NCBI RefSeq assembly: GCF_036971445.1
Contig: NC_091480.1
Location: forward strand, 29,636,001 to 29,700,000
Origin: Narcine bancroftii
Lineage: Eukaryota
Length of the DNA stretch: 64,000 nucleotides
Reading direction: 5' to 3'
Of the stretch, positions 1-58,838 are shown one piece after another (within the stretch, counting starts at the first letter, position 1; every line of letters starts with the position of its first letter). Made by a program: the position numbers and the translations under genes. The notes under the pieces were generated by a model. The model ran no database searches, was not told where the DNA came from, and saw nothing but the letters and a program-made list of their open reading frames with translations.

Positions 1-189
1 AGAAACCAACGTGTGGTTCTTGTATGAGAATAGTTTCATTCTAGGGGTATGAAATTCCTGCAATAAAATATCACGCTGAATTGACAGAAGAGTTGTTTGG
101 TTCTTTGGGGGATTATCTTCATTGGGAGTAAATAGGAAGAAATCATGGTATTGGGATTCTGTGCACTAGTGTTAATTTCTTAGGATTTC

Positions 190-410
190 ATTGCATGGGA
201 AGGGAATTGGTTTATTGGGATATTGTACAATGGGAGTGAATGGGGAGGTGCTGTGTTTATTAGGATTCTGTACCTTGGGAGTGAATGGGGAGGGGATTGT
301 TTTTTGGGGATTTTGTGCAATGGTGGTGAATGGGACGGACAGTCCATTGGGAATTTGTAGAATGGGAGTTCTTGAAGAGGGATTTTGTTTATTAGGAGTC
401 TTCACAATGA
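190..410. repeat. Degenerate ~45-bp minisatellite
   Basis: Recurring ttattgggattytgt...tgggagtgaatggggagg units; explains ORFs 172..405 and 191..607. Confidence 0.6.
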
Positions 411-1233
411 AACGAGCTCATCTCAAAAAAGGATCCAGACTGGAAACATTGACTGATGATTTCCCTCCATGGATGCTGAGTCCCTTCAGCTTCTCATTAT
501 TCACTCAAGGTTCTAGCCCTTGTGGTTCTTGTGTTTCTACAAATAAAGCCTGTCTCCAAACTGCACTGCAAAAAGACTCTTGCCCACTGGAGATGAATTA
601 CTCCTGATCAGGGAAGACTATCACTAAAGCTCAGCCTTACTTTCTCTTCTCTTCCTAAACAATTTCAAGTTCAGGTTTATTGTCATATCTCCCAAGACAA
701 GATGGTCAATCCAGACGTAACCAAGCTGTGTAATTCCAGAGGAAGAACCTGGGAGACAGCTGCTCTATGGTCTCTCTTGCCAGTAGAGCAATGTCAATAT
801 AACCTGGTATGAGTTTACATTACATGGTGAAGAAGAGAGAGCCGAAAAGGATAAAGGAGGCTTAGAGAGGCTGTTGAATAAAGTGAATGTAGGAGAGAGG
901 TCTAAACATGAGTAGGTTTGATGAATCTTATGAGGAATAAAACTATATGTAATATCTCATCGCTTTGCCTTCTCCGAGTGCTCCAAGTGTGGTCTCACCA
1001 ACATCTTGTGCAGTTGTAACATGGTGTCCCTGCTCCTGTACTCAGTGCTCTGGTCAATAAAGGGAAGAGTGCTAAGCCCCTTCTTCAACACCCAGTCCAT
1101 TTATGTCACCACCTTCGTGGAACCATATACCTGGGCCCATCAGCCTCTGTGTTCTATAATACTCTGTCCCTCTGATGGGCCTGGAGGGTCTGCCACAGAG
1201 CCAGAGGTGAAGGGGATGTAAAGATTTTCTTAC

Positions 1234-1342
1234 TTGTCATGTTTATTGGCCAATACCACAACAGCAATGATGAAGAATGTAGATATCACTCCACATACGA
1301 TCATGATAAAGGAGAGTTGGTCAGGTTCCGTTTGACACATAT
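1234..1342 (-). CDS. IL21R: IL21R-like coding exon 6 (transmembrane); gene continues beyond window start
   Basis: Acceptor tgtcctctccag, donor gtaaga; 109 nt, phase 1 to 2; DMCQTEPDQLSFIMIVCGVISTFFIIAVVVLANKHD hydrophobic segment. Confidence 0.85.
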
Positions 1343-2113
1343 CTGGAGAGGACAAAAAAGAAACAGCAGGCTTTGTACAATTTCTTGTTTCTTGTGCTTT
1401 TTCTGAGCTGAAATGGTGCCTGTAGTAGATTGTTATCATTTTCCTGGTACAATCTAACCACCTGACCAGTGAATGCGGAGAGAAGGCGGGAGCAGAGACA
1501 CAAGCACAGGCGTGAATGCGGGAGCGATGCCTACTGTTGCCAAACAGCTAATAGACGGTCAGTGCTCGGGTTCACATGTGAAGATGGATCAGGGATCGAC
1601 TTTCAAAGGCCTGGACCCAAGTGAACCAACTGGACAGTGAGGCCCGAAGGCATGGCCCAACTTGGTGACCTCTGACCTCGGTGCTAATTGGAAAAAGCTG
1701 ATTGGTAGGGAAGTGGAGGAGTCAATGCAACACAGTCCCAGGTCACAAAGGCGACACTTAGAATTGGAAGGGAACTGGGGAATAATGTGCCAAAATTAAT
1801 TATCTGTGCAGTTAAAAGTAGAACACTCCCAACCACAAAGTATCAAGGGAGCAGGTGAGGGAGTTACCTCCCTCATTCCCATGCCTTGTCCTCTAAAGAT
1901 GCCACTCCTGACTCAAGCCCCATAGTTCTACTCTTCCTTGTCTACCATCTCACATTCCCTACATGGCATACTTTCCTCTTCACATCTTATCCAACTCCTC
2001 ATCTCATCTCCTCCCCTCCACATCCACCACCCTCCTCCCTCACCTTCCTCTGCAGCCTGTTGACCACCCCCAGCCCCTCCCAACCCTTCGTTCACCTTGT
2101 AATCTGCCTGAGG

Positions 2114-3097
2114 CAGCCCTGGCATCACCAGGGGGGCAGTGCTAATTTTCTAGGTGCTGGAGCTCACCAAAAATGACAGCAAGGAGGTGCCAGAGCCGCC
2201 CCAAGAGGTGCCTGGAGCGGCCAGCACTGCGCCCCTGTGTGCCACTAAGGGGGTACAGACTACACTGGGTGACATCATCGGGGGATGACACCAAAATGAC
2301 TGTCAATAAAATTTTTGTGCAGTGTTTCAGCAGAAATGTATTATTTTTTTATAAAAATATCCCTGTAGTTAGTTATAACAACAAAAACATTTTTGTAAGC
2401 CCAGCTTACATGTATCTATATACCTACAAGGCTAAAACTCTATGCTCATTTACTTTTTGGACCTTCTAATGTCCTCCGGTCAGAGCTGTCATTATTACCC
2501 AATTACAATGATGCTTCAAATCATGTGGTTTCATCTGCACGTGCTACAAGCAAGCGCTGTTGTTTTTGTTGCTGTTAGTGTTTTTATAGTTGCTGCTTTT
2601 GTCAAATTTTCTGGTGTTTTAGTTACAATATTGTGGGAATTAGTATTTGTGAACCTAGATCAATAACATTTTTTGAGAATGAAGTAGTAATTAAAGGAAA
2701 AAGAAGGAGAAAAATCTAAAAAGCTTCCGCTCAGTTACTAATAATGTAGCCATTCAAAGTAGAAAGATTTTACAAAACAATTTTGTTGTTAGTCTTCATA
2801 TAATCTAAGAAATATTACATTTAAGCAATTTACAACTATATTTATCACATATTATTCTATATTTTTACTATTATATATACATTTAGGCTGAGCGTATGAT
2901 ATTGTAATTTAAAGGTGTAATTTTAATTTTGCTAATTGTTTATCTCACTACTATTGCCATTACATTTAGTGATTATGGGAATTACAATTTACGAGAAACA
3001 TTAGTACTAAAAACATTACTAAGGATTCTGTATGGTCTGGTCCATGGGGTGTGGAGGGTGACACCATGAGTTACCACACTGGGTGACATCAACCTTA
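2114..3097 (+). mobile_element. Non-autonomous hAT-like (Tip100-type) DNA transposon with a nested mini-MITE
   Basis: Subterminal repeat acactgggtgacatca at 2262-2277 and 3076-3091; AT-rich core; family inferred from terminal motifs. Confidence 0.5.
2129..2237. mobile_element. ~109-bp MITE, 15-bp TIR CAGGGG(G/C)GCAGTGCT
   Basis: TIRs at both ends; an inverted copy lies at ~19248-19352. Confidence 0.7.
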
Positions 3098-3181
3098 AGA
3101 GCCAGGTGGAGTTTGCAACTCTACCCTCCAACCCCACCCTTCCAGTGGTAACCACCCCTCCCATCTTGTGTGGCCTCTTAC

Positions 3182-3350
3182 CTGTTCTCCACTTCACTGG
3201 GGGGCTCCAGTCACTCCAGACTGCCTTATAATCAGAGGTCATTGCTGGGCGAGTGCGGATCTGAGCCACATGTTCGGTGTCTTGTTCTAGCTCTGAGAAG
3301 ACCAGCCGGAGGACCCTCTGGTTACTTCCCTCGTGCTTAATTTTCTGGAG
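3182..3350 (-). CDS. IL21R: IL21R-like coding exon 5 (D2b with WSDWS motif)
   Basis: Acceptor tttcaatctacag, donor gtaaga; 169 nt, phase 0 to 1; LQKIKH...AQIRTRP...YKAVWSDWSPPVKWRT contains the WSXWS motif. Confidence 0.92.
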
Positions 3351-3469
3351 CTGTAGATTGAAAAGAACAGTTCAGTGCACCACTCATCACTGCTCTGGTC
3401 TACCTCATCGTGTTTGGAATCACGCAGCTTCTTAGCAGATAACCCTGGATGTAGTCAGCCTGGTTCAGT

Positions 3470-3682
3470 GGGGAGCTCTATGGAAGGGTCAGTACTGAGT
3501 GAGCGTTGCACTGTGGGAAGGGCAGTACTGAGGCAATGCTGCACGTTCAGGTGAAAAAGTGCTGAGTGAGCGTTGCACTGTGGGAAGGGCAGTACTGAGG
3601 CAATGCTGCATGTTCAGGTGGGAAAGTGCTGAGGGAGTGTTGCACTGTGGGGGGGGGGGGGCAGTGCTGAGGAAGTGCTGTA
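3470..3682. repeat. Tandem ~30-bp satellite (gcactgtgggaagggcagtactgag...)
   Basis: About 6 degenerate units; related inverted remnant at ~9560-9640. Confidence 0.7.
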
Positions 3683-3863
3683 ATATTAAAGGGACAGATT
3701 TTTTGTTGTATATATTCAGAAACTGGACATCACATGCAAGACCAACATTTATTGGTCATTCTTCATTGCCCCTGAGAAGGTGAACTCTCTTCTCGAACCT
3801 TGCACTCTTTTGGATGAAGGTACTCCCACAGTCCTGTCAAGATGGGGCTTCCACGATTTAGAT

Positions 3864-4215
3864 CAATGGTTTTCAAACTGCCCGCCTAAACTCTGTAATC
3901 CCTATGCCATTGAGTCTCTGTGATTAGTAAGGGATTGCATAAGGTGGTATGCGAGTGAGAAGGAATGGTTGAGAATCACTGCCCTAGACCCAATCATTAA
4001 TGAAATATTTTGCTTGAGAAAAATTGGTCCATTTCCTTTGGCATTATGAAACCGTGAACCTAATATCAATTAGGTATGATTAAAACAGTGGTTTTCAACT
4101 ATTTCTTCTCGCTCACATACCACCTTAAGTAATCCCTTACTAATCACAGAGCACCTATAGCATAGGGAATGCTTAAGGTGGAATGTGAGTTTGGGGGGAA
4201 GTTTGAAAACGAGTT
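3864..4215. mobile_element. Composite hAT/Charlie-type MITE (two inverted subunits around a spacer)
   Basis: Termini CAATGGTTTTCAAACT...AGTTTGAAAAC; exact 8-bp TSD atttagat (3856-3863 / 4216-4223). Confidence 0.85.
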
Positions 4216-4529
4216 ATTTAGATCTAACAATGATGAAGGAGCAGTGAGATACATTTCCAAATCAGGACAGTATGACTCAGATGGGGACCTGCATGTGCTG
4301 GTGCTCTGCCGTATCCTTCCTACTGGGATTGTGAAGTGCTCCCAGAATGGCAAGTAATCTCCATATAATTAGTGATGGCGAACATGCTTGAAATATCTGC
4401 TGGATGGATTGTTAATCATGCTTAAACCTCCAGTGCTGATTCACCACCCATGGAATCAGACTACAGGAAGGGGATCTCTCAGCTCTCAGTCCATTCACCA
4501 TCCATTCCAGCCACAGCTCTCCTCCTAGC

Positions 4530-5693
4530 TTTCAGATTTCAGATTTATTGACAGAGGACATACATGACATCACATGCAACCTTGAGATTTCTTTTTCCTG
4601 TGGGCGCGGCAGAATTACCACTAATTGGTAGCACAGAAAATAAACTGTACACAGCATAAAACATAAACAAATAAAATAACTGTTAGCAGATAACAAATGA
4701 AAGAAACTGATAGTGCAACACAGAGAGAACTAAAAGAAAATCTATAAAGTGCACAAGTAAGAGTCCTTAAATGAGCCTCTGAGTTTGTTACTGAGGATTC
4801 TGATGGTGGAGGGGTAGCAACAGTTCCTGAACCTGGTGGTGCATGTTTTGTGGCACCTAGACCTCTTTCCTGATGACAGCAGCGAGAACAGAGCATGTGC
4901 TGGGTGGTGTGGATCTTTGATGATTGCTGTTGCTCTCCAACAGCAGTGTTCCCTGTAGATGTACTCAATAGTAGGGAGGGTTTTGCCTGCTATGTTCTGG
5001 GCTGTGTCCGCTACCTTTTTGGGGGAGGGGGGTCTTTACACTCAGAGATATTGGTGTTCCCATAGCAGACTGTGATGCAGTCAGTCAGCACACTTTCCAC
5101 CACACCTCTGCAGAAATTTACCAGGGTTTCTGTTGTCATACCAAACCTCCGCAAACTCCTGAGGAAACAGATGTGCTGATGTGCTTTCTTCACAATGCCA
5201 TTGGTGTGTTGGGTCCAAGATAGATCCTCCAAGATAGTGACTCCCAATGACTTAAATTTGCTCACCCTCTCCACTTCTGATCCCAAAATGATCACCTGGA
5301 TTGTATATTTTTCTCATGTTCCCCACACCTTGATGAAGGGCTCAACCCCAAAACGTTGGTGATGTATTTTCACCGTTGCTACATAAAGGCACTGTTTGAC
5401 CTGTTGAGTTTCTCCAGCATTTCTGTGTTTTTTCACCTGGATTGTATATGTCTGGCTTTCCTTTCCTGGTCAACAATCAGCTCCTTAGTATTGGTTACAT
5501 TGAGTCCAAGGCACCATTCAGCCTAGTTTTCAGTCTCCCTCCTGTACGCTGACTCATCCCCTTCCTTTATACAACCCACTATTGTGGTATCGTCGGCAAA
5601 TTTGTAGATGGTGTTGTTGTTGTACAGAGCCACAGAGTTGTAGGTGTAAAGTGAGTAGAGCAGGGGGCTAAGAATAATCTCCACATTCAATCC
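4530..5693 (-). mobile_element. Rex1/Babar-type LINE 3' fragment (decayed RT)
   Basis: Minus-strand KFADDTT and ...SKFKSLGVTILEDLSW...FLRSLRRFG; tail caataaa(tctgaaa)n. Confidence 0.75.
5309..5432 (+). mobile_element. Penelope-derived short insertion with hammerhead-like motif
   Basis: 17-bp TSD tcacctggattgtatat (5292-5308 / 5433-5449); cttgatgaagggctcaaccccaaaacgtt core. Confidence 0.75.
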
Positions 5694-6638
5694 ACCTTAG
5701 CTGCTCTTTTAGAGAGGGAAGAGGACGATCACATTTTGCGTGATGTGGAGTCGAGGAGTGGAATGGCAGAGCAATACCTGTATCCACCACTGGAGGGGGC
5801 TGCAGATTGACAATTTGATTAATTTTAGATTTCTACTATCATCAGTAACTTGTAATTCTATTCTGGCTTCCTGCAGCATCTGATATCTAACTGTTTAATC
5901 CCACTCTTTCCACACTGCCTCTACATTTTAATCTTTTCCAGTCTACTCAATCTCCCCATTCATTTCTGTAATATCTCACCACTCTAAACTTCTTTCACAT
6001 TTTAATTTTTCACATATTCTAAACCACTCTCAATACCAGCCAACCAGTTTAACCCCACCCTCTCCTGCATATTTAAAATCTTACCCAGTGCAATCCAACT
6101 CACTCCTCAATCTCAAACATTTATAACCAATGTAATCCCTCTCTCCCTTCATTTCCCAAATTCTTTAATATTCCACCTAATTTATTCCCTGTATTCATTC
6201 ATATCCCAAACAGGATGGTGATTCCAAGATGGAAATACATAATCCCAGAGGCAACAGTGGGGATTTTGAATTCAGTTAATTAACGGAACTGGTTAACGTA
6301 GTGGTTAGTGAAATGCTATTACAGTGCCAGCGAATGGGACTGGGGTTTAACTCCTGCGCAAAGAATGGAGGATATGGATCACATGCAAGCAGCGGGATTT
6401 CATTTAGTTTGGGTACATGGTTAGCACAGACATTGTGGGCCAAAGGGCCTGATCCTGTGCTGTACTGGTCTATATTTTCTGTGAAACTGTCCCCTTTAAG
6501 AGCACTTGCTTCTGGTGCCTTTGAGATTAGACACTTTGATAACAGGGCAAAAGGTAGTGGCACGCTTTTAGAATACAGAAGCTCCACAAAATTGAACCCT
6601 ACCATTAAGTATCAAAAAGAATGAGTTTGCAGTCCTAC

Positions 6639-6790
6639 CTCCCAATCATCTTGCATCCTCTTGTATCTCAGCTCGTACTCAAATTCCTTCACGTAATCTG
6701 TCTCATCATAGGCAATTTGCCATGTGAAGTTGTATGTCTCACAGGGAGCTTCATGGGAGATGCTGAGATTGAATGGAGCAATAAGTTTAA
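6639..6790 (-). CDS. IL21R: IL21R-like coding exon 4 (FNIII D2a: KLIAPFNLSI...YNFTW...EYELRYK...DDWE)
   Basis: Acceptor ttttctccccag, donor gtagga; 152 nt, phase 1 to 0; PFN, YNxxW and YELxY motifs as in IL21R. Confidence 0.88.
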
Positions 6791-7377
6791 CTGGGGAGAA
6801 AAATGCATCATTTAGAAATTTGAATAATGAAATTCTCCAACGCACAAGGTCTCCCTGAAGTTGCCCACACGAAGAAGCTGGTGGGAAAGTGGAGGTATAG
6901 GAGTTAAAGTTGAGTGGAGCAAGACCATCGACAAAAGCTGATGTTGGACATGCACAGACATGGGGTCAAGTTGAAAAGAACAGCAGGAAGGGCACTGAAT
7001 AGCGCTTTCCCTTCCCCAAATTACTGGAATTCAATTGTAAGATAGAACCTTAAAGCCCATTTGAACTAGAACGAGAACACAAGCTTTCCAAGTGAGAAAC
7101 TTTGATGGAAAAAGAGAGAGGAAGGGGCAGTCAGAGAAAGGGTGGGGAATAGTAATCAGTCAATATATATCAGAAGAATGAGAGAAGTAAAGGAGAGAGA
7201 AAGACAGATAGGGACAGAGGGGGAGAGAATACAAGCAGGACTGTTTGCTGGGCCAACACAAGAGGAACCTTGCTCTGTTTAGTCCACCGTGTGCCTCTCA
7301 TGCAGTTTTTAAATGGGAAAGGATTACACCTTCCCTTCTTTCCTTTGATCCTTCTGCAAAGGTGCTTTGATACTCAC

Positions 7378-7574
7378 TGTTTTGTGAAGTGTCAAAGTCA
7401 GGGCATGCTACATTGCTGGTCTCCATTCCCATGCTTCTCGTGGTGAGGCTCATACTGTAGTTTTCCATTGTGATCCCATATTCGTGGTAGAGTTGACAGC
7501 TGCACACAGCAACCCCACTGCTCGCATCAGAACACGAGGATGCATTCAGGCTACAAGACAATGCCTCATCCACA
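7378..7574 (-). CDS. IL21R: IL21R-like coding exon 3 (D1b: VDEALSCSLNASSCSDASSGVAVCSCQL...NVACPDFDTSQN)
   Basis: Acceptor ctctcttttag, donor gtgagt; 197 nt, phase 2 to 1; DEALSCSL resembles human IL21R DEATSCSL. Confidence 0.85.
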
Positions 7575-7853
7575 CTAAAAGAGAGAAAATGTCGCACATT
7601 CCGAGGACAGGCAACAAAATACCAGGGAGCCCATTCTGTCCTGTAAACCCGCTTGATTGATACCTCAAACAGCAAGGAGCGATGATGCTTTCCTAAGGGA
7701 GAATAGAATCTGGAAGATATTGGCTCCATTTCTCCATTTAGTATATCCATTGGCTGCTCTCAATCTCCAACACTCACTATGAATATATACCAGCCAACAT
7801 CGGGAGTTTTCCATCTTTCATTGTCTCAAACTCACTGAGAAGCAGATTCCTGT

Positions 7854-9305
7854 AGCCGCTTTCAGGTGCTTGGATGCAGATAATGCGCCGGCAGACACGA
7901 CTGGGGGAGTGCAGCGGGACATTCAGGTGGCCACGGAGAAGACGCCTTTATGACACCTAACAGGCTTCTTCAGGTGCATTCTCTGTCCCTTGAATTGTCA
8001 TTCAGGTGGCAGCGCTAAAACCACTGTGGGGCGGCCGGCACGGGCTGTCAGTGTGGGGACGTCCCATGCGTGGCATCTCCAGAGCTGGCCACCTGAAGGG
8101 ACAGCTGCACCAGATGTGCCTCTGAGCACACTCTGGCTCCTGTCCCTTTGGGCTGTCAGGTTTGGGATGGCTGGCTGTCAGAGCTGGGACAGCCAGCGCA
8201 GGCTATCAGCACAGGGATCTCCCACGTGGGACTTCCCCACACTGACACCACTGCCCCGCTCCCCCAAAAGCCCGACACAAGCCCCCACACCTGCCCCCCC
8301 AACAGCCCGACACGAGCCCACACACCTCCCCCCAAACAGCCCGACACGAGCCCCCACACCTGCCCCCCCAACAGCCCGAAACAAACTCCCACACCCGCTC
8401 CCCCAACAGTAGCACCCCCAACAGCCTGACACGAGCCCCACACCCGCTCCCCCAAAAGCCCGACACAATCCCCCACACCGCAGGGCGGCCAGCGTGGAGA
8501 TGCCACGCATGGGACGTCCCCACACTGACAGCCCACGCCGGCCGCCCCACAGTCCAGGGACCCACGTTGGGCCGCCAGGAGAGCTGGGTAGCAGTATGGG
8601 GACATCCCCACACTGACCGCCCCACAGTGCAGGGACTCACGCCGGGCCACTGGGAGAGCTGGTGCGGGTACCCATGATGGGCTGCCAGGAGAGCTGGATA
8701 GCGGTATGGGGACATCCCCACAGTGCCAGGCCGTTGGGAGAGCGGGGTAGTGGTATCAGTGTGGGGATGTCCCCGTGCTGACAGCCCACGCCGACTGCGC
8801 CTGACCTGACATCCCACGCAGGGGGGCAGGGGCAGCTGGGAGAGGAGCTGTCAGGCGCTTGCCGACTAACTGTCATCCCCTTAGCAGCTGCTTTCAGGTG
8901 GCTGCATTCATGTGCATGGGGTGACCTCACTACTCCGGCAATTATCCCTCCCAGAGGAGGGTTCAGAGTTTGCCTCACAGGCACCTCCTGCGCTTTCAAG
9001 TGGCCTCCCGACAGCCGCATATTGGCATAATATGCGGCTTTACAAGCAGGGAATTTAGCCACCTGAAAGTGCTTACCTGAACATGCTGGCTGAAGTAGAG
9101 CCGCGTCCGAGCGAACGCCGGCTCCTGTGGACTATGGCCGTAGTCCCACTGCTGCCTTCAGGTGCAACAGGGGATTCTCCGAGCCAGAGAATATACCTAC
9201 AGGAGGAGGGTTAGGTGAGTGCTCCTCCTGGCCGGGTTCTCCACTTTCAGGTGGCCACCGACAGCCACATTAGGAGTTGGGTATTTTGGCCACCTGAAAG
9301 CGGCT
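7854..9305. mobile_element. GC-rich non-autonomous TIR element (PIF/Harbinger-like)
   Basis: 15-bp perfect TIR AGCCGCTTTCAGGTG; many internal ttcaggtg/cacctgaa copies; 59-bp internal inverted repeat; ~33-bp tandem array at 8260-8480. TSD imperfect (tgt/tga). Confidence 0.7.
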
Positions 9306-10199
9306 TGAGAAATCTGTTCCTTTGCGATGTAACTAGTTTGGCACAAGAGCCGCAGAGAGCAGTGAGTCGATAATCAGGCTTATAAATGTTTGGTGATCCA
9401 AAAATATCGAGTGTTCAATTCATTAAAGTAGTCCCACCTTATCTTTTGGGCCCATTTGAGGAATAGACAATGCTCAGATCCTTGTCTCAACCAAGAGATG
9501 TCGCCGCATCTTTCAAGATCGATTGTTTTGTTGTTTTGATGAGGTCACAATGTTGACCAGTACTCCTACACACTGCTCCCCCCACGGTGAGGCACTCCGT
9601 CAGCACTGATCCTCCCACATTACAATGTTCCCTCAGTATAGATCATGACCTAACAATCCTTTTCGCAAAGCATTAAAGACAGACATTTTTAAAGAAGTGA
9701 AAATCTCAGTTCCGCCCGTTAGCCATTCAGCAGCTTGGAATCACATTCAGGATAACCAACCTCATTCTCCCCTCCCAGAGAGATCCAATAACCTGTAAAT
9801 CACAGCTCTTCCAATCCACACCCAACTGATCAGACATTTTTTTTAAATTTACGCAACTGTGCCACCTTGGTGAGGGCTTCTGTCTCTCCTACATTTCCTG
9901 GCAGCATGTTCCTGATCCCAAGACTGGTCCACTATTCCATATGACCACACTGATTTATGCTGGCCTCAACTTCTGTGCTAGTTTCCAATGGCTTTCAATT
10001 TCTCGATCTTTCAGATATTTATCTACGTATCTCTATCTAATAATCCACCCTTCACCATCCTTGGAGGCAGAAAATTCCATAGATTCAACACCCTTTGATA
10101 GGAGATGTTACCTCATACCTCAGTTTTAAATAACTAGCCTCTTATTTTGTGGAGATGTCTTCTTGTCAAGATGCCCCTACTAACAAAAATATCTCAACA

Positions 10200-10728
10200 A
10201 CAGACCATAGCAACAGATGTAGGAGCAGATTTAGGCCACTCAGCCCATCAAGTCTGCTCCACCATTCCGATCATGGCTGAAAATTCTTCCTCTCAACCCC
10301 ATTCGCCTGTCCCCTTCCGCCAATCTTTGACACACTTACTGATCAAGAACCTATCAACCTCCACTTTAAATCTACCCAATGACTTGGAGTCCACAGCTGT
10401 CTTGGCAATGAACACCACTACCCTCTGGATGTAGGAACTTCTCATCTCTGTTTTAAAAGGACATCCTTTTATTCTGAGGCCCGCCCTGCCCTCTGGTCCT
10501 AGACTCTCCCACTATTGGAAACATCTCCACATGCACTCCAACCAGCCCATTCAATATTTCATAGGTTTCAATGATATGACTCCTCATCCTTCTGAATTCC
10601 AGTGAGTAATGGCCCAGAAGCATTAAATGTTCCTCGTACGTTATCATTTTCATCCCCAGAATTGCAAACCTCTTTTGGTCCCTCTCCAACGCCAGCACAC
10701 CCTTCCTTTGACATGGAGCCAAAAACAT
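10200..10728 (-). mobile_element. CR1 LINE 3' fragment
   Basis: ...LLGHYSLEFRRMRSHIIETYEIL resembles the CR1 ORF2 C-terminus, followed by 3' UTR. Confidence 0.75.
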
Positions 10729-11690
10729 TTACCGTCAAAGCCCCTTAGGAATTTAAATGTTTAAATAAGGTGACCCCTTCATTCTTCAAAACACAGAAGG
10801 CCATTCAGCCCATTGAGTCTATATTGGCTCTCCACTGGAGCAACACATTCAATCCACCACTCACCCCTTCTCTGTAGCCTTGCACAATACCCTCACATTG
10901 TATTTATCCAATTCCTTTTGAAGGCCACGATGGAACCAGTTTTTGCCATGTCTGGGGTCAGTGCAGTCCAGATCCAGTGACAGTGCATCAAAAAGTTCAT
11001 CCACACTTTATTCTCTTCTCCTTTATTTCCTACCTGTGACTCCCTGTCCTTAAATTCAAACCCCCACTCTACCCCCAGTCCCACCACAGAAGCAGCCTCC
11101 CATCCATGGAAGGTATCTATGTAAGCCACAAGCTCAAGAAGGCAGCCTGCATCATAAAGTTTGCCCTTTATCCTCAACACGACCTCTTTCTGCTGCAACC
11201 TTCGGGCAGTCAGTTTGAAAACCTGCGCCTACCTCTAGATTCAACATCAGGTTTTTCTTCCCCAACGGATATCAGGCTCTTGAACCTCCTCAAGCTACCC
11301 TAACTATCAACTCCCACAGGAGCACCATTGCAGTGAACCAAGATTCACTGGTAATGAGTTGTGCAGATGGCTGGCTCCTCCCCCATCTACCCACATATAA
11401 CCTAGATTCCCGCCTAAACCCTGATCCCTCCCTACAGTGAGACCCTACTTTTTGTTCTCCCTCCAGTCATGAAAGCTTTTATTTGCGCTACAACCGTACA
11501 AGCTGTATAATTAAAAGATTATACTTTTGCTTTAGCTACAACTGTGAATATTTACTTACCTAACTTTTTGTCTTATTATCTCTTTTTCTGTCTTCTGCCA
11601 CATTACAGTAATGTGTTTTTGTGGTGGTACACCACTGGCCTACTGCAGGGGGCAACACCTGTACCTGCAGGAGTGTACCATCGGCCTACT

Positions 11691-14600
11691 ACATGGCTCA
11701 AAACAACGTGGTCGATGAGCCGATACAGTGGGGCCACCTGAACTCTCTGCTGGGTAAGGTCCCTTTCACCGTAACACAAGGAGCTACCATTCTGGCTATA
11801 GCCTGGGAACATCTGACTGCTTACTATGTAGCGCCACGGAATGTGGTGCTTGCTCGACATCATTTGCTGACTAGACGCCGGGAACCCAGGGAAAATGATG
11901 CTGCCTATGCACTGGCTCTCGACTCACTGCCAAATGAATGTGATGTCGGGGCAGTCAATGTGCAACAACACCGCAATGCCTTGAAGCTGGATGCTTTAGT
12001 CAACAGGATTGACTCCAGTTACATCCGACAGACGCTGCTAGAGACGGAGCCATTAACCTACGACCGGGCAGTCACTCTAGCCAAAACACTAAGAAGTGCC
12101 ATGTGGTCCAGTGAAATGCTAGAAAAGGAAACATCCAGGACTGCTGGAACCCCGATGGAAAGAAAAATGCTACTTCTGTGATAATAGCTGGCACTCCAGA
12201 CAAGTGCCCGGCTCGATTTGCTACCTGCAGCTATTGTGGGAAACTCGGCCATTTCGCTAAAGCATGTAAGGCAAAAAGTGCTCCCACTGATAAGAAGAGA
12301 AGAACCAAGAAAATGCGTCCTGGAGCTGCAGGAATGGAAGACAACTGTGAAAAGGGGGAATTTTCAGACGAGCCAACTGAATTGAGGAGAGGTGATAGCT
12401 CAATTGACTCCAAAGCTTGGGGGATGTTATGGACTGGAACGGTCAACTATGAAGGGGGAGGTGAATGGTGAGAATCTTGATTGTCTAATAGACTCGGGGA
12501 GTGCTGACAGCTACATCCACGAGAGAGTTGCCAGAGCCTTAAATTTGCAGAGATATCCAGCGAACCGAAAGATATCGATGGCTTGTAGTGAACTTACAAA
12601 AACTGTACGGGACAAGTGTAAAGTTTCTTTAAATTTGCTGGAATATTGCCTGGCTGAAGTGTGGCTCTTTATTATGCCAGAGCTCTGCACCCCTGTGGTA
12701 CTGGGGTTAGATATTCAATCTCAGATGAAAAGTGTAGTGTTAAATTTTGGTAGGCCACTACCTACACTTACCATCCCCTGTGCTAGTTACTGCGGTCTGT
12801 CCACATTAAAGATCAAAGCTCCCTCCTTTTTCAATTATTTATTCCCCCGAGTATCGGCCGATTGCCTCTAAGAGCCGTTCTTACAGCAAAGAGGATCAGA
12901 GTTTATCAAAGCTGAGACCCAGAGATTGCTTAAAGAGGGAGTAATTGAACCCAGTAAGTGTCTGTGGTGAGCCCAGGTGGTAGTTGTGAAAAATCACACT
13001 AAGAAACTATTGGCTATTGACTACAGCCAGACAATCAACTGTTACACTAACCTGCATGCCTACCCCCTGCCACGGATCAATTAAATAGTTAATCAGATAG
13101 CGCAATCCAAAGTGTACTCCACTATCGACCTCAAAGCAGCTTACCACCAAATCCCCATTAAAACAAAAGGAACGACCCTATACAGCCTTTGAGGCTGATG
13201 GGGGTTATACCAGTTTAAAAGGGTACCTTTTGGAGTCACTAATGGTGTGTCAGTGTTTCAGAGGGAAATGGATAAGATTATTAGGATGGATGAGTTACAG
13301 GGTACGTTTCCCTATCTGGATAATGTCACTATCTGTGGGAAAACACAGGCTGAGCACGACAACAACTTGAAGAAATTTTTAGCAACAGCTAAAGAACTCA
13401 ACCTTACATTTAACGAAGGCAAATGTGTGTTCAATGCAACAGAGCTACCCATTCTGGGCTACATTGTCCGCAAGGGCAAAATCCGCCCCGACCCAGAAAA
13501 AATCCCCCCCCCTTAAGAAGTTACCACCCCCAAAATCAGCAAAAGCCCTTAAAAGGTGTATGGGATTCTTTTCCTAATACTGCAAATGGGTTCAGGACTA
13601 CGCCACGAAGTCACGCCCTCTGTTTGACACTAAATCTTTTCCTCTCTCTCCAATGGCCTTGAAGGCTTGAGAAAATTAAAGCTGATATTGCCAAAGCTGC
13701 ACTCTCGTCCATTGACGAGGGTGTCCCATTCCAAGTGGAAACTGATGCCTCAGATTGTGCCTTGACAGGAACCCTTAATCAAAAGGGCAGACCTGTGGCA
13801 TTCTTCTCCCGCACACTACGCAGACCTGAACTTAAACATCCTGCCATTGAAAAAGAAGCCCAGGCTATTATTGAAGCTCTTCACTACTGGAGACATTTTC
13901 TAGCCGGCAGAAAATTTACTCTTGTCACTTATCAGAAATCTGTAGCCTACATGTTCAGTACTAAACACAAAAGTAAAATCAAGAACGATAAGATGGCATG
14001 CTGGCGAATAGAACTCTCAACTTATAATTATGAGATCCAGTACAGACCGGGCAGGTTAAATGATCCCTCTGACGTATTGTCACGATCTGCTGCTGGTGCT
14101 CAGCTGGAGAGGCTAAAAGAGATCCATAGCAGACTGTGCCACCCAGAAGTCACGAGATTCTTCCACTACATAAGGGCTAACAACCTTAGAAGTCGGGAAA
14201 CTGACTAAAAGCTGTCCTGTTTGCACAGAATGCAAACCGCAATACTTCAAAGCTCCAGAGGCCACTCTCATCAAGGCAACCCGACCTTAGCTTAGATTTT
14301 AAAGGTCCGTTACCTTCCAACAACAAAAATGTACATTTCCTTACTGTAATTGACGAATATTCCAGGTTTCCCGTTGCGATACCCTGCTCTGACGTTTCGT
14401 CAGCATCTGTCATTAAATCACTTGACAGAATTTTCAGCATTTTTGTTTTTCCCAATTACATTCATACCAATAGAGGCTCAGCATTCATGAGCGCTGAACT
14501 GTGGCGAGCCATGCTACAAAAAGGAATTGCCACCAGCTGTACCACAAGCTACAACCCGCAGGGCAATGGGCACCTTGAAAGGGCTAATGCTACAGTCTGG

Positions 14601-14995
14601 AAAACTGTTAATCTTGCTTTAAAAACATATGATTACCCTGTAACCCGGTGGCAGGAGGTGCTGCCTGAGGCACTACATTCTATTCGGTCTTTATTGTGTA
14701 CTGCAACAAATCAAACACCTCATGAACGTATGTTTGCCTTTCCTAGGAAATCAGGAACTGTGATGGACTGGCCAGCCTGTTTATCTGAGCCTGGAACCGT
14801 GCTGCTGAAGAGCCACACTCGGGCACGTAAAACAGACCCCGTAGTCCAACCAGTTCATCTACTGCATACTAACCCCAACTACGCTCATGTTAAATTCACA
14901 GACGGGAATACTGACACTGTACCCCTAAGAGATCTAGACTTGCCTGGTTCGCCCCTTCCTCGCACCCCTACTCAGAGTGAGCCTGAGAAGTTGGA
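11691..14995 (+). pseudogene. Decayed Gypsy gag-pol (Zn knuckle, protease, RT, RNase H, integrase) without its own LTRs
   Basis: CSYCGKLGHFAKAC; LIDSGSADSYI; FPYLDNVTICG; ETDASD...RPVAFFSR...IEKEAQA; integrase core; multiple stops and frameshifts. Confidence 0.9.
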
Positions 14996-15192
14996 GGGTG
15001 TCAATCACCCTCCGGGATACAAGTCTGCGCCGGCCTCCTGAAGCTCACTCAGAGTTATTGCAGCTACAGCTGGCCTGGCTCTGTGGAAGTCTTTGTGGAT
15101 TAAAGCCTGTTGTACAGTCTTTACCTTGTGTGTGTCTGATTCTGGCTAACAGCGCACCACAATTTAATCCACAAAATTTTCCCACGGCTGCC

Positions 15193-16980
15193 ATGGAAAA
15201 ACTCCTGAGCACAGGGAGCCTCGAAGTCGACCCACGCCACTCGGAAGCCCAGACACGCTTCGAGATCTAGCAGCACGCGGTCGAGGCAATCATCGAGGCA
15301 CACAAAGGCAGCATCCTGAACTCAGATCGGAAGAGGTTGGTCCTACTCCGGTCAAAGCTGGGTCCCCACGACTTCCAGGCAACCAAAGGCTGCTCTGCAT
15401 ACAAGAGCGCAATGGACACTCTCGAGAACTTGAACAAGCCCCACACGAATGCGGTCTGTGCAAGGTACCTCCTCACCACCCGAGCCCAGCAATCAAGGGA
15501 GACAGGCTGAGTCTTACCTGGGACACCTGTGAGAGTTGGCCCGACCATGTCTGGCTGAACCTGGGGTAGGTGCAGAGGAGGTCGAGAGGCTGATCCGAGA
15601 CGCATTCGTCCGAGTGCTACACTCGAGGCCCGTCCAGCAGAAGCTGCTGGAAGACAATATCTACGCCCTAACCAAGACAGTGGAAGTGATCCAAACCCTG
15701 GAAGCCTTCGATTCCAGGATCCCCCAGGCTCCCTCGTGGCCCTCTCACACTGCAGCTGCAGCCCCAGACCGAGCTGGGGAGTAAAGCGTCGCTGCAGTAG
15801 GTGCCCAGCCCCCCTGTAAGTACTGTGGGTCCTGGTATGGGTCAGACCGACGATTGCGCCACAACTGCCCAGCTCGGAACCAGTATTGTTCCCAATGCGG
15901 CAAGAAAGGACACTTCACTAAAGTGTGCCTCTCAAAACCAGCCTCTCCACCTGCCCTGCGGACCCCTCCATGTGTGCGTGCCGGGTGGCACGATTGTCCC
16001 TGCTACGACTTCCCGACCGCGACGGTGCAACATCAGACCCAGCGACTGTCGCAGCATGTGCCCTGAGCACCTGGACCAGCTCTCGCCCTCGCCAGCGCAG
16101 CTCGTTGAAAACTACAGCGACGTCACGTTCGGCTCACGGCGTGACGCCACTACTGCTGGCCGCGATTATGTCACTTCCCCGGCACAATGAACACGGCTGG
16201 GGAAGGAGGCCAGCCACGCAGCAGGCCCCCACATGCCACTGCCATCTTGGGCCAAGCAGCGGCCGACACGGAGGGCCCCCCGATGACATTGAGAACAGCA
16301 TGGTCAACACGGGCGGTGACCAGGCCACCCTACCGACGTTCCCCATGCCTTCGGGTGCCAACGGCTGCCACACTCTGCACCCCACGACTAACGTGAACGT
16401 GGTCAACACGGGTGATGACCAGGCTGCCCTACCGACGCTCCCCATGCCTCCGGATGCCATAAATCACTATACACAACCAGAGAGCAACGACTCCGACTCT
16501 GAGACAGTCCTGGCCACTACCACGCTGACCAGGGACATCCCTCACGACCTCGGGCACTCTATGATGGATGTGCAAGTCAATGGACAGGAAGTCGGCGACC
16601 GGACTGTCCCTCCCAGCATTGCTCACGTCCCTGGAACCGGTGCTCCTGCGTAAGCATGTATGGACACTCAAGGCCGAAGCCCTGGTCGAGCAGGTTTGCC
16701 TCCTACATGCAAACCACAACTAAGCCTACGTTAGGTTCAGCAGTGGCAGGGAGGACACCATCTCAACCAGGGACCTGGCACCAGCAGGAGCACCCACCAC
16801 ACCACGCCATTCTCCAGCCCAGGACGACACTGACCGGGCAATCATCCCCCTTCCCAGGCAGCTATGGGGCACGCAGGACCTCTTTGACCACCAGGGGCCC
16901 GCTTCAGCCTCCCCCCACCACCCATCCAATATGGTCACAGAAACCCCGGCAGCCGCCGGACCGTCTCAACCTGTAAATAT
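15193..16980 (+). pseudogene. Internally deleted Gypsy internal region (gag + start of protease joined to integrase C-terminus)
   Basis: MEKLLSTGSLEVDP gag start; CSQCGKKGHFTKVC; MMDVQVNGQEV joins at ~16595 to PVLLRKHV...TISTRDLAP. Confidence 0.8.
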
Positions 16981-17951
16981 TGTATGTGTATAGGGGGTAT
17001 GAATCCTTGTTACTGCACCCCCCCCCCGGACAATTTGAAGGAAGGGAGTGAATGTGGTGGTACACCACTGGCCTACTGTAGGGGCAACACCTGTACCTGC
17101 AGGAGTGTACTGCCAGCCTACTGCAGAGGGCAACCTCTATGCCTGCAGGATTGTAAGGAGAAAGGACAACACCTGGCCAGCTGTCAATCAGTCGGCCTGA
17201 AGGGATCAAGCCCCACCGGGTCGGGTGTCAATCACCCTCGAGGATTATAAGCCTGCGCCGGCCTCCCGAAGCTCACTTAGAGTTACTGCAGCTACAGCCA
17301 GCCTGGTTCTGTGGAAGTCTTTGTGGATTAAAGCCTGTTGTACAGTCTTTACCTTGTGTGTGTCTAATTCTGGCTAACAGCACCCCACAGTTTTACATTA
17401 TTGTAGTTGGTGTACATATCTGGGTGACTGCAGCAATAAGGATTTTGGTGCATCTGTACATTTGCAGTCCAGCCTTCTCCAAAGAAAACCGATCCAGCCT
17501 ATCCAACCTACCTTTCTAATTGTAGTAACCCATTCCAAGCACCATTCTCCATAAAGTCCTCCGCAGCCTTCCTATAATATAAAAAACAGAATTTAATGCC
17601 ATAACCCAATAGAGGTCAAGACCAATATTTTACAAAGGTTCAGCATGGGTTCTCATGCGCTTCATGTTGTTAACATAGAACAATAAAGCCCAGTGCAGGC
17701 CCTTCGGCCCTTGATGTTGTGCCAGCCCATATCTTCCTAATAAAAAATACTAAATCCTCCCTACTCCATAACTCTAGTTTTCTTTCACCCATGTGTCTGT
17801 CTAAGAGTCTCTTAAATGGCCCCAATGCCCGCATTTAAAACCAGGAATATTATATGCCTTATCAAACACCTTCTAACCTGCCCTGTCTCTTTCAATTATT
17901 TTCATCCCTGTGCTCTTTCACCCTTTTTGAGCAATAATCTTTAATCTATAT

Positions 17952-18076
17952 CAGTGGTTTTCAAACTTTTTTCTTTCCACTCACATACCATCTTAAGTAA
18001 TCCCTATTCCATAGGTGCTCTGTGATTAGAAAGGGATTACTTGTGAGTGGAAGGAAAAAAAAATTAAAAACCACTG
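17952..18076. mobile_element. Single-unit Charlie-type MITE (subunit of the 3864-4215 family)
   Basis: CAGTGGTTTTCAAACT...AAAAACCACTG; 8-bp TSD atctatat/ctctatat. Confidence 0.8.
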
Positions 18077-24559: not shown

Positions 24560-25110
24560 AAGAGTGAGCAAGTGTTGCCTCAGCAAATAATGTCACAATA
24601 AAAGATGTTACAAGTAATGTTGCAATAAATTATGTCATGACAAGAGATGCTAGTGAAAGATATCACAGTAAATGTTGTCATGACAAGAGATGTTACAGCG
24701 AATGATGTCACAGTAAATGTCATGACAAGAGATGTTGCAGTGAGTGATGTCACAGTAAATGATGTCACAAAAAAGAGTTGAAGTGAGTGATGTCACAGTA
24801 AGTGATGTCACAACAAGAGTTGTTGCAGTGAGTGATGTCACAGTAAATGATGTCATGATGAGATGTTGCAAGGAGAGATGTCACAGTAAAATAGGTCATG
24901 ACAAGAGTTGTTGCAGTGAGTGATATCACAGTAAATGATGTCACAAGAAGAGATGTGGCAGTGAGTGATGTCAGAGTAAATGATGTCACAACAAGCTTTG
25001 TCGGCATAAGTGATGCAAGGAATGAATGAATGATGAGATATATCAGCAACAGTAAGGAGTAATGTCAGACCATGCAATTAAAGGTTGATGTAAGAGTGAT
25101 GTAATAGCAA
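24560..25110. repeat. 15-bp-based minisatellite (tgatgtcacagtaaa / tgttgcagtgag)
   Basis: Many degenerate tandem units; source of the repetitive ORFs at 24580-25077. Confidence 0.85.
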
Positions 25111-29909: not shown

Positions 29910-30567
29910 CCTTGCCCTCCCTCCCTCCATCCTTCCTCACCCCCTCCCTCACTCCCTTTCTCCATCCCTCCCTCCCCCTCTCACTCCTTCCCTCCCTTTC
30001 TCCATCCCTCTCACTTCTTCCCACACTCACTCTCTCTCTCTCCCCTCACTCACTCTCTCTTTCTCTCCCCTCACTCACTCCGTCCCTCCCTCCCCTCTCA
30101 CTCCTTCCCTCCCTTTCTCCATCCCTCTCACTCCTTCCCACACTCACTCTCTCTTTCTCTCCCCTCACTCACTCACTCCGTCCCTCCCTCTCCCTCTCAC
30201 TCCTTCCCTCTCTTTCTCCATCCCTCTCACTTCTTCCCACACTCACTCTCTCTCTCTCCCCTCACTCACTCTCTCTCTCTCCCCTCACTCACTCTCTCTC
30301 TCTCCCCTCACTCACTCACTCCGTCCCTCCCTCCCCCTCACTCCTTCCCTCCCTTTCTCCATCCCTCTCACTTCTTCCCACACTCACTCTCTCTCTCCCC
30401 TCACTCACTCACTCCGTCCCTCCCTCCCCTCTCACTCCTTCCCTCCCTTTCTCCATCCCTCTCACTCCTTCCCACACTCACTCTCTCTCTCCCCCCCTCA
30501 CTCACTCACTCCGCTCCACTCACCCTTTTCCTCCCTCCCTATCTCCTTCATACCCCCCCCCCCCCCC
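29910..30567. repeat. Polypyrimidine/polypurine tandem repeat
   Basis: Almost only C/T with A interruptions; higher-order unit ctcactccttccctccctttctccatcc recurs. Confidence 0.9.
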
Positions 30568-41751: not shown

Positions 41752-42854
41752 CAGGGGTGTCAAACTCAAATTCACGGAGGGCCAAAATTAAAAACTTGGA
41801 CTAAGTCGAGGGCCGAACTAAATATTTATTGAAAATTTTCAACAACATCTGCATGTTTTCTCTTCTTTCAACATATGTAATGTTAAACTTTTTCTTATTA
41901 AAATAAATGTTTAAAATAATAGTTTTGGATAAACTCTTTCATTGTCATTGGCCCATTTCCTTTGGAGCTCTGAAACCGTGCACATGACGAGTCAATGAGG
42001 GATGATTAAAGCAGTGGTCTTCAAACCTTTTCTTTCCACCCACAGACCACCTTAAGCAATCCCTTACTAATCACAGAGCACCAATGGCACAGGGACGCGA
42101 GTGGAAAGAAAAAGGTTGAGAACTGTTGTATTGTGGTAACTCCACATCTGATTAGGTTAATTTTTAGGCAAGTGGTCAGAGAAGGACCCCCCCCCACCCC
42201 AAGAAAGGCTTAAATCACAGGAACAAAATAAGCTTCCGTCTCACTGCTCCCAATCTTCCACACAGTCCTGATGTGGAATGTGGGGTCGCAGTTCCACGTT
42301 CATCCGAGTTCAGGTGCTGTCTGTGTGGAGTTTGTATGCTCTCCCCTTGTCTTGGACCAACAGGTTGGTCGCCTGAAGAAGGCACCCGAACCCCCCGTTG
42401 AAACGCCAGCGTCCGGGGTGGTGGAGGAATTAGCTGAGAAGAACGCGTTGCCTCCACCCCCCTCCCATGGTTGGAGAGGGATTAAACTGCGATCTCACGG
42501 CACCGGGCTCGTCTCCAAAAAAAGGAGCGGGAGGCAGGGTCCACCGCGCACGGAGCGAGGGGGAAGGCATCGCCAACGAGACGTTCGGTCCGGCGTCGCC
42601 GCTGAAGCGCAGACCCAGCGAGGATGGTCCCCAACTCCAGCCTCGTCTGTGTGTCCGGGAACCGGGCGGGCTGAGTGCGGCGCTCTGATCCCTGGGATTC
42701 GGGACTCTGAAACCCTCCACACCTCCGGCGTCTTCATTTTCACCTTCAGTGTGCATGCGCTATACTGGCGCGGCAGCCAGTGGGCCAACTCTAATATATA
42801 TTTAATATGATCTTGCGGGCCAAATATAATTATATCCAGAGTTTGACATGTGTG
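41752..42854. mobile_element. hAT/Charlie-type element carrying heterogeneous internal pieces
   Basis: CAGGGGTGTCAAACTC...GAGTTTGACATGTGTG; 8-bp TSD tctttcac/tcttacac. Confidence 0.8.
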
Positions 42855-57000: not shown

Positions 57001-58080
57001 GCTTGTGCATGAATCGCAAAAAGTTAGGTTGTAGGTGCAGCAGGTTATTAAGAAGGCGAATGGAATGTTGGCCTTCATCGCTAGAGGAATTGAATTCAGG
57101 AGTAGGGAGGTAATGTTGCAACTGTATAAGATACTGGTGAGACCGCACCTGGAGTACTGTGTCCAGTTCTGGTCTCCATATTTGAGGAAGGATATACTGG
57201 CTTTGAAGACGGTCCAGAGGAGGTTTACTAGGTTGATCCCTGGGATGAAGGGGTTGACTTATAATGAAAGATTAAATCATCTAGGATTGTATTCGCTCGA
57301 GTTCAGAAGAATGAGAGGAGATCTTATAGAAACATATAGGATTATGAAGGGTATGGATAGGATAGATGTAGGAAGGTTTTTTGAGCTGGCCGGGGAAACT
57401 AAAATGAGAGGACACAGTCTCAAGATTCAGGGGAGTAGATTTAGGACAGAGATGAGGAAAAATAGTTTTTCCAAGAGAGTAGTGAATGTTTGGAATTCTC
57501 TAACCAGGGAAGTGGTTGAGGCTGCCTCATTAAACATATTTAAAATTTGGTTAGATAAATTTTTAAATTATATAGGAATTAGGGGACATGGAGAGAAGGC
57601 AGGTAGGTGGAGTTAGGTCATAAATTAGGTCAGCCATGATCGTATTGAATGGCGGAGCAGGCTCGATGGGCCATTTTTGGCCTACTCCTGTTCCTACTTC
57701 CGATGTTCCACTTCTACACCACCATGAAGAATGCATACTGAGCCATACCACAATGGCACTTTGGCAAGTCTGATCACCTGGCTGTACTTCTACTCCCAGT
57801 AAACAAGCAGGGACCAAGGACCACAGCACCAGTAGTGAAGATGGTGAAGGTGTGGTTGAGGGAGGTGGAAGAGCGTCCGCAGGACTGCCTTGAATCGGTG
57901 GACTGGAACATACTCAAGAAGTCATCCAGAGACTTGAATGAATATGGAACAGATGTCACCAAATTCATCAATACCTGCATGGACGAGTATGTGTCCACAC
58001 ACAAATACTGGTGTTTCCCAACCAGAAGCCCTGGATGAATCAGAAGATTCACAACCTGCTGAGGCTAAGAACAAGGGCAT
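54043..58080 (+). mobile_element. Rex1/Babar-type endonuclease-region fragment split by a CR1 insertion
   Basis: FCSPDLEHLAIKC.PFHLPREF...YIPP on the left; continues after 57710 (LESVDW). Confidence 0.7.
54408..57709 (+). mobile_element. CR1 LINE: ORF1 esterase C-terminus plus near-complete but disrupted ORF2 (APE + RT)
   Basis: DLYKRDELHLN; YLNARSI, GDFN, SDH; SPGPD; VPQGSVLGP, KFADD; 3' UTR; 12-bp TSD acttc(c/t)acacca (54396-54407 / 57710-57721); several stops and frameshifts. Confidence 0.92.
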
Positions 58081-58470
58081 CTCCCACTGGAAGACTGAGA
58101 TGCCATTCATGATGCCAAAGGAGACCCACAGGAAGTGGTAGAGGCAACCATCCATCTTGAACACTATATACTGGCAATCCTCTGGGTGGATGGGTAACTG
58201 ATGATATGTCGACTTTAGATCTATGGTCGAAAAGACCCAAAACTGGGCAATTTGGTTGACCATAATCGGTGATTTGCGGAAGGGGTATGCATCCAATTGA
58301 GTGTATCTATTGATGATCTGACCATAGTCGATGACCATTCTATTCTTTTCACCATTCCACACTACCACTATCTGTGCTCTCCAAGGGCTAGTGATGGCTT
58401 CAATAACCCCTTCCTTAAGTAAGCACTGTATTTCTGCCAAGATGAAGGCCCTGTCTCTGGCATTGTACTG
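58080..58470 (-). pseudogene. Gypsy RT fragment related to the 11691 pol
   Basis: LLKEGVIE...SPWRAQIVVV...IDYGQIINRYTQLDAYP...STIDLKSTYHQ. Confidence 0.8.
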
Positions 58471-58838
58471 GGTTGGCTGTCGAATTGCTGGTTACAAACG
58501 GTGAGGGGTGAATGGGGCTCATCAAACGCCATCGTCACGCTTTAAAGATGTCATTGAAAATCAAGCTCCAACCGTACATCAGTGCAGAGCTGCAACGTTA
58601 CCATCAGTCTAAAGTTGTCATATACAGTGAACTGTGCATCGATAAAGTCACAATACAGAAACCCTGAATTTCTGCTGTTAATGACTTGGATGCCAAGGAG
58701 ACCTTCTGGTTCACCGGCAGTACTGTGAGGGAGAGGCACCGCATTGTGTCCGGATGTATACAACTCTCTGTGTTCCGCTATTGAAGAAGCAACTCATCAC
58801 GTGACCTTTTACTTTGATGTCCATCATCGTCTTGGTGA

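What the first reader, a model, noticed from the sequence alone, without database searches (positions are those of the whole stretch)
11620..17389. Chimeric Gypsy: a 3.3-kb helper-like gag-pol embedded in the 5' LTR of a pol-deleted element
Seen: one unit with an exact GTTTT TSD. Its 5' LTR matches the 3' LTR over 11620-11690 and 14996-15161. The 100 bp present at 17123-17222 of the 3' LTR are replaced by 11691-14995, a more AT-rich gag-PR-RT-RH-IN with no LTRs, PPT or TSD of its own. The host internal region lacks exactly PR-RT-RH-IN core. Established: reverse transcription normally makes both LTRs identical, and nested insertions bring their own LTRs and TSD. Inference: template switching between co-packaged helper and non-autonomous genomes, or cDNA capture at a break, i.e. 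a record of a helper/parasite pair.
Basis: partly seen in the sequence, partly recalled or inferred. Interest (0 to 1): 0.75.

Follow-up and report, generated by a model that had tools for sequence, protein, structure and literature searches.

The report
Retrotransposon fragment patched into another's LTR
A broken 3.3-kb piece of one jumping-gene family sits inside the left terminal repeat of a copy from a different family, most likely a one-off repair accident rather than a helper-parasite system, and the host copy likely lacks its enzyme genes because it was copied from a spliced RNA.

Summary
Observation confirmed: 11620-17389 is one Gypsy unit with a GTTTT target-site duplication. A 3,305-bp gag-PR-RT-RH-IN fragment replaces 100 bp of its 5' LTR. 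The helper/parasite reading is weak. The insert is cut at both ends, decayed, and from a distant family (gag 26-33%, integrase tail 43% identical to the host). It lies upstream of the LTR's TATA box and primer site, so it would be neither transcribed nor recopied. A 4-5-bp microhomology at the left junction fits capture at a DNA break (about 50%) or a late template switch during reverse transcription (about 30%). The apparent complementarity has another cause. The host's pol deletion is shared by another copy, and it resumes at the base where annotated transcript isoforms of the insert's family use a splice acceptor. The host is therefore probably (about 65%) a multi-copy non-autonomous family derived from a copia-like spliced gag RNA; a microhomology deletion is the rival. 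The host has a Tf1-like self-primer match in place of a tRNA primer site. Neither insert junction is confirmed by reads.

The parts
11615..11619 (+). left target-site duplication GTTTT
11620..11690 (+). 5' LTR, first part (LTR positions 1-70; start of inferred U3)
   Evidence: alignment to the 3' LTR
11686..11693 (+). left junction microhomology: 4-5 bp shared by the LTR and the donor gag (7 of 8 to 11693)
   Evidence: gag match to P0121/P0122 begins at 11687 (residue 32), LTR match ends at 11690; the fifth base is inferred from the Asp codon
11691..14995 (+). captured fragment of Gypsy family A: 5'-truncated gag, PR, RT, RNase H, IN; no LTR, primer site, PPT or TSD; decayed
14725..14760 (+). 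splice acceptor in the integrase of family A (pyrimidine tract, AG at 14745-14746, exon resumes at 14747)
   Evidence: C-termini of P0121, P0124 and P0123 are the three frames starting at 14747
14996..15161 (+). 5' LTR, remainder (TATA-like site 15018-15022, self-primer match 15092-15104, ends CA)
15163..15175 (+). non-tRNA primer-binding site, perfectly complementary to 13 nt inside the LTR (self-priming inferred)
   Evidence: 0 of 2000 shuffles reach 13 nt; 10 of 10 chosen relatives show 11-17 nt
15193..15950 (+). host (family B) gag, full length from ATG, decayed
15951..16587 (+). host Pro/Thr-rich linker with a two-copy 99-bp repeat, and the first protease codons
16585..16590 (+). host pol-deletion junction (16587/16588), shared with another copy and homologous to the family A acceptor
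16588..16800 (+). host integrase C-terminal domain
17037..17052 (+). polypurine tract
17053..17389 (+). intact 3' LTR (TATAA 17246-17250, self-primer match 17320-17332, ATTAAA 17327-17332); 17123-17222 is the segment missing from the 5' LTR
17390..17394 (+). right target-site duplication GTTTT
   Evidence: a contig bridges LTR end and flank with no differences in 3 runs of one sample

Best explanation
A copy of a non-autonomous Gypsy family, likely derived from a spliced gag RNA, integrated with a 5-bp target duplication, and a break in its 5' LTR was then likely patched with a 3.3-kb internal piece of a second, contemporaneous Gypsy family, with loss of 100 bp. Shown: the anatomy, both-end truncation, left microhomology, two distinct families, and the shared host junction. 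Inferred: (1) in family A, pol is removed as an intron from the gag end to an acceptor in integrase, giving gag-only RNA; (2) family B lost pol at the homologous site and, keeping self-primer site, PPT and LTRs, was amplified in trans, most simply by its own unspliced relatives; (3) the resected LTR end annealed to family A cDNA or a chromosomal copy through 4-5 bp and was rejoined 100 bp further on; (4) the product is a dead end, because 5' U3 is not part of the genomic RNA. The confidence refers to the break-repair origin of the insert; the splice origin of the host is about 0.65.
For: Insert truncated at both ends, without LTR, PPT or TSD, with left microhomology. This is the signature reported for LTR-element capture at breaks in mouse zygotes (PMC4516963, passages). 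Gag begins intact in 3 of 3 related Narcine loci found, so the junction is not the family's normal form. Uninterrupted LTRs exist elsewhere (joints 11677 to 17163 and 11680 to 17113). Similar ages: LTR pair 8.2%, insert gag 78-80% identical to relatives, about 4-5 lesions per kb in insert and host gag. Splicing: two isoforms of one locus and a third model resume at 14747 in three frames; the host junction is at the homologous base and recurs in P0126.
Against: Same orientation, same self-priming group and position in the 5' LTR are also what a late switch during reverse transcription predicts; nothing here separates the two. Microhomology at the right junction could not be tested. No listed contig bridges either insert junction (32 of about 217,800 pieces shown). 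Against splicing: no unspliced host copy was seen, so the GT donor is untested; the acceptor codon is not conserved in distant relatives (AGG in 3 of 37); and the one other pol-deleted relative among 68 loci also breaks after CAG but has no GT donor. The gag search covered only proteins of 267 residues or more, so a junction-starting form could be missed.
Confidence: 0.5

Rival explanations
1. Late template switch inside a virus-like particle. While the 5' LTR was being made (plus-strand strong-stop synthesis or final minus-strand extension), RT jumped onto a co-packaged family A genome for 3.3 kb and back, so only the 5' LTR carries the insert.
For: Same orientation; unspliced pol retained; families coeval and abundant; left microhomology; errors in plus-strand synthesis give defective 5' LTRs and asymmetric LTRs in HIV-1 (PMC12657518, PMC9278108, passages).
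Against: Needs cross-family packaging (gag 26-33% identical) and two near-nonhomologous jumps. Recombination between distant genomes is described as rare (PMC6894440, passages). The asymmetric HIV LTRs in the passages read were deletions, not multi-kb foreign inserts.
Confidence: 0.3
2. Ordinary nested insertion of a full family A element into the LTR, followed by two deletions that each removed one of its LTRs and some host LTR.
For: Family A is abundant and this copy carries many small deletions.
Against: No LTR, PPT or TSD remnant at either junction; two independent junction-spanning deletions are needed.
Confidence: 0.1
3. Families A and B share this LTR (a true helper/parasite pair), and the locus is a tandem LTR-A-LTR-B-LTR array trimmed by two deletions, or an amplified chimera.
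For: Both interiors have comparable summed contig depth and the LTR depth is higher. Trans-mobilisation without LTR homology is considered possible.
Against: The N-terminal extensions of family A gene models P0122 and P0123 give no significant match to the LTR (weak, they may be host exons). The integrase tail is 43% identical, against 62% to stingray families. An insert in 5' U3 cannot be recopied.
Confidence: 0.06
4. Assembly chimera between two repeat families.
For: Neither insert junction is bridged by a listed contig; the best runs hold 0.42-0.44 of the sampled words.
Against: No N in the window; TSD intact; only 4-5 bp of overlap, too little for an assembler join (inference); flanks match exactly over 677 and 367 bases in the listed contigs (one difference in one run).
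Confidence: 0.04

Closest known systems
[quoted passage not shown] 2015, PMC4516963; passages read)
   Same: internal fragment truncated at both ends, no LTRs or TSD, microhomology at one or both junctions
   Different: 3.3 kb against 0.3-1 kb in the passages read; the target is the LTR of a related element; natural and old
Drosophila copia spliced 2.1-kb gag RNA (10.1101/2023.05.27.542554; passages read)
   Same: most of pol removed as an intron, giving gag-only RNA
   Different: Gypsy, not Copia, and vertebrate; for copia the authors found no genomic copy of the spliced form, whereas here the pol-less form appears to be multi-copy
Asymmetric LTRs of HIV-1 proviruses (PMC9278108, PMC12657518; passages read)
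   Same: the two LTRs differ in structure; late strand-transfer errors affect the 5' LTR
   Different: deletions from same-virus templates, not a foreign multi-kb insert
Tf1-type self-priming LTR retrotransposons (mechanism recalled; search listings only)
   Same: primer-binding site complementary to a sequence inside the element's own LTR, no tRNA-type site
   Different: an animal lineage with double zinc-knuckle gag; the complement overlaps the ATTAAA signal; transcript start unknown
Autonomous/non-autonomous LTR pairs (TRIM, SMART, Helenus; PMC10886601, passages read)
   Same: host lacks RT and integrase core and needs them in trans
   Different: host keeps its own full gag; no evidence that the insert's family is the partner

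Membership tests
Ty3/Gypsy LTR retrotransposon | domain order PR-RT-RH-IN | tested here: met
   insert; host keeps the protease start, then the integrase tail
Ty3/Gypsy LTR retrotransposon | TG...CA LTRs, 4-6-bp TSD, PPT | tested here: met
   host
Ty3/Gypsy LTR retrotransposon | primer-binding site | tested here: met
   LTR-complementary site of 13 nt, 0 of 2000 shuffles; no TGG-type tRNA site by eye, no tRNA library searched
Mag-type clade (name recalled) | RT tree placement with reference elements | not tested
   no named reference sequences available; resemblance recalled only
ordinary nested insertion | own LTRs, PPT and TSD | tested here: not met
break-repair capture | both ends truncated, no TSD | tested here: met
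break-repair capture | junction microhomology | tested here: inconclusive
   left 4-5 bp; right untestable without native family A 3' sequence
break-repair capture | pre-capture allele with intact LTR at this locus | not testable with these tools
   no genome held; contigs too fragmented
helper/non-autonomous pair | host non-autonomous and multi-copy | tested here: met
   same junction in P0126 (1 of 1 hit); high depth
helper/non-autonomous pair | shared cis signals or close kinship with the helper | tested here: inconclusive
   coding kinship low; family A LTR unknown
helper/non-autonomous pair | embedded gag-pol intact and expressible | tested here: not met
   truncated, decayed, upstream of the TATA site
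copia-type spliced gag RNA | acceptor near the end of pol used in transcripts | tested here: met
   family A gene-model isoforms; these are annotations, no RNA reads seen
copia-type spliced gag RNA | GT donor in unspliced host copies | not testable with these tools
   no unspliced host copy recovered

The most novel reading that the evidence does not exclude
These self-priming ray Gypsy elements make gag RNA by splicing out pol, the spliced RNA was itself reverse-transcribed into a high-copy parasite family, and this locus is a fossil of that RNA being co-packaged with a different family's genome, with RT switching across families while building the 5' LTR.
Probability: 0.2. Interest if true: 0.7.

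Novelty: new variant of a known kind. Interest (0 to 1): 0.4.

Why it matters
The chimera itself is probably a single dead accident of a known class. The by-product matters more. If pol is an intron in these vertebrate Gypsy families, that offers an answer to how single-reading-frame Gypsy elements could make excess Gag. If the spliced RNA founded a multi-copy family, splicing is a repeatable route to non-autonomous elements, which was looked for and not found for Drosophila copia in the one paper read on it. Both points are testable on existing ray assemblies and RNA-seq.

Tried and rejected
No whole genome is held for this window, so copy-by-copy comparison was not possible. LTR motifs gave 0 matches in viral and metagenome contigs; an alignment query gave 26 candidates and 0 relatives in viral contigs. 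None of 68 related loci matches the host or its LTR at DNA level. No further copy of LTR, insert or host lies in the window, and the flanks have no usable paralogue there. A clade-wide conserved acceptor was rejected (AGG in 3 of 37 distinct sequences). Ordinary minus-strand switching was rejected by logic: it would mark both LTRs. A 4-mer TCAA near both junctions is not at the boundaries and is chance-level. Contig depth was not used as a copy number, and the joint 11594 to 17437 (side 22) is only a hint of contiguous flanks in paralogous repeats. The representative search gave 7 distant hits, none of the host family. Earlier-finding look-ups by sequence, place and chimera words returned nothing. 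Paper searches showed no listing that describes this family, a pol intron in such elements or self-priming in this group; listings only, and subscription papers and Repbase are not covered. No supplements were read.

Full report
Observation. The unit 11620-17389 is bounded by GTTTT on both sides and ends in a 337-bp TG...CA LTR preceded by a polypurine tract. The 5' LTR is split: 11620-11690 and 14996-15161 match the 3' LTR (18 substitutions in 236 sites, K2P 0.082), and the 100 bp at 17123-17222 are replaced by 3,305 bp of 46% GC against 59.5% for the host interior. The insert (family A) has a zinc knuckle, protease, RT, RNase H and integrase by Pfam; the host ORF pieces have none of these above threshold (12 stretches scanned). 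The host (family B) keeps a full gag, the first protease codons and the integrase tail.

Context. The closest proteins are gene models that their source names as Narcine bancroftii; I did not determine the origin of the window. No genome was available. Contigs from four public runs (two samples) pile up far above the unique flank: insert bins 18,000-48,000, host interior 6,000-34,000 and LTR bins 67,000-142,000 summed depth in run X1, against exact flank contigs of depth 6-8. The tool warns this is not a copy number; I take it only as showing that both families are highly repeated. A contig bridges the right LTR end and flank without differences in three runs of one sample. Joints show uninterrupted LTRs elsewhere. 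No listed piece bridges either insert junction, but only 32 of about 217,800 pieces were shown.

The junctions. Family A gag in three Narcine loci starts about 31 residues before the point where the window's match begins (11687). The LTR match runs to 11690, so 4 bases, 5 if the preceding Asp codon ends in C, belong to both sequences, and 7 of 8 match to 11693. The insert ends shortly after integrase with no purine tract, LTR or target duplication. Native family A sequence beyond that point was not obtainable, so the right junction is untested.

Position in the LTR. The TATAA lies at LTR position 194 and ATTAAA at 275. Positions 268-280 are the exact complement of the 13 bases that start one base after the 5' LTR (0 of 2000 shuffles; 10 of 10 chosen relatives show 11-17 bases, though 9 of the 10 come from one assembly and are not independent). 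This resembles Tf1 self-priming (recalled). Whichever start site is used, positions 71-170 are inferred to be U3. An insert there is outside the genomic RNA, so it cannot be expressed from this LTR or copied again, and an ordinary minus-strand switch would have put it in both LTRs.

Are the two families a pair? The host's integrase tail is 43% identical to the insert's but 62% to stingray families, and 105 of 127 polyproteins compared score higher than the insert. Gag is 26-33% identical; DNA identity in the tail is 59%. The insert's decay lowers these figures somewhat but is unlikely to explain the gap. The simplest helper for B is its own unspliced lineage, which I did not find. Trans-mobilisation by A cannot be excluded (PMC10886601, passages).

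Why the host lacks pol. P0126, another copy with three linker repeats instead of two, has the same protease-to-integrase junction, so the deletion is a family trait, or is annotated there as an intron. In family A, two isoforms of one locus (P0121, P0124) and a third model (P0123) end in the three reading frames that start at 14747, right after a pyrimidine tract and AG. Two isoforms differing by five bases at one junction require splicing (inference; these are annotations and I saw no RNA reads). The host deletion resumes at the homologous base after CAG. A gag exon of a third related family leaves for a host exon at the protease start. This parallels the spliced gag RNA of Drosophila copia, for which no genomic spliced copy was found (10.1101/2023.05.27.542554, passages). 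Against: the acceptor codon is AGG in only 3 of 37 distinct distant relatives, although the F-P-R-K-S context is present in 12 of 14 cartilaginous-fish proteins (many from one family) against P-R-K-S in 6 of 82 others matched. The single other pol-deleted locus among 68 also breaks after CAG, by a 3-base microhomology and without a GT donor. The coincidence was also noticed after the fact. I put the splice origin at about 0.65.

Mechanism of the insert. Both-end truncation, target deletion, no TSD and microhomology match capture of LTR-element sequence at breaks (PMC4516963, passages); the template could be cDNA or a chromosomal copy. A late switch by RT in a mixed particle predicts the same product, plus the same orientation, and 5'-LTR defects from plus-strand errors are known in HIV-1 (passages), but cross-family recombination is described as rare (passages). 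Similar ages fit both. My odds, which are judgement and not computed: break repair 0.5, RT switch 0.3, nesting plus two deletions 0.1, shared LTR or amplified chimera 0.06, assembly error 0.04.

Verdict. A real and odd structure, probably a one-off dead end and not a helper/parasite system. The more useful lead is the pol intron and the probably splice-derived host family. Ten paper searches were run; those on this family, on splicing and on self-priming listed no description of it, which is weak evidence of novelty because subscription journals and Repbase are not covered. An earlier scan note on gag-only splicing in a fungal Gypsy element is a lead, not support.

Noticed in passing
window 15163-15175 and 17320-17332; L003, L005-L008, L010, L013-L015, L054: The primer-binding site is complementary to the element's own LTR over 11-17 nt, overlapping the poly(A)-signal-like motif; self-priming appears general in this animal Gypsy group.
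   Followed up: partly
window 58078-58839 (- strand): Isolated protease-to-RT fragment of a third related Gypsy family, about 58% identical in RT, with no gag or integrase match beside it; possibly another truncated capture.
   Followed up: partly
proteins P0133-P0135: A Narcine zinc-finger-like host gene model includes nearly a whole Gypsy gag as an internal in-frame exon in all three listed isoforms.
   Followed up: no
L052:5325 and 5634: Young pol-deleted relative (98% identical to L007) with two deletions at 3-base microhomologies, not GT-AG.
   Followed up: yes
window 17064-17155: The LTR's U3 holds an imperfect tandem repeat of about 45 bp; the left junction falls at the start of its second unit.
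   Followed up: partly
window 8023-8801: GC-rich cluster of 34-bp tandem repeats enclosed by several inverted repeats, up to 59 bp at 97%.
   Followed up: no
window 24561-24995 and 29946-30548: Minisatellite-like arrays (15-bp-based unit; about 47-bp spacing).
   Followed up: no
window 17952-18042: Very high-copy short palindromic repeat, with relatives at 3899-4190 and 42024-42095.
   Followed up: no
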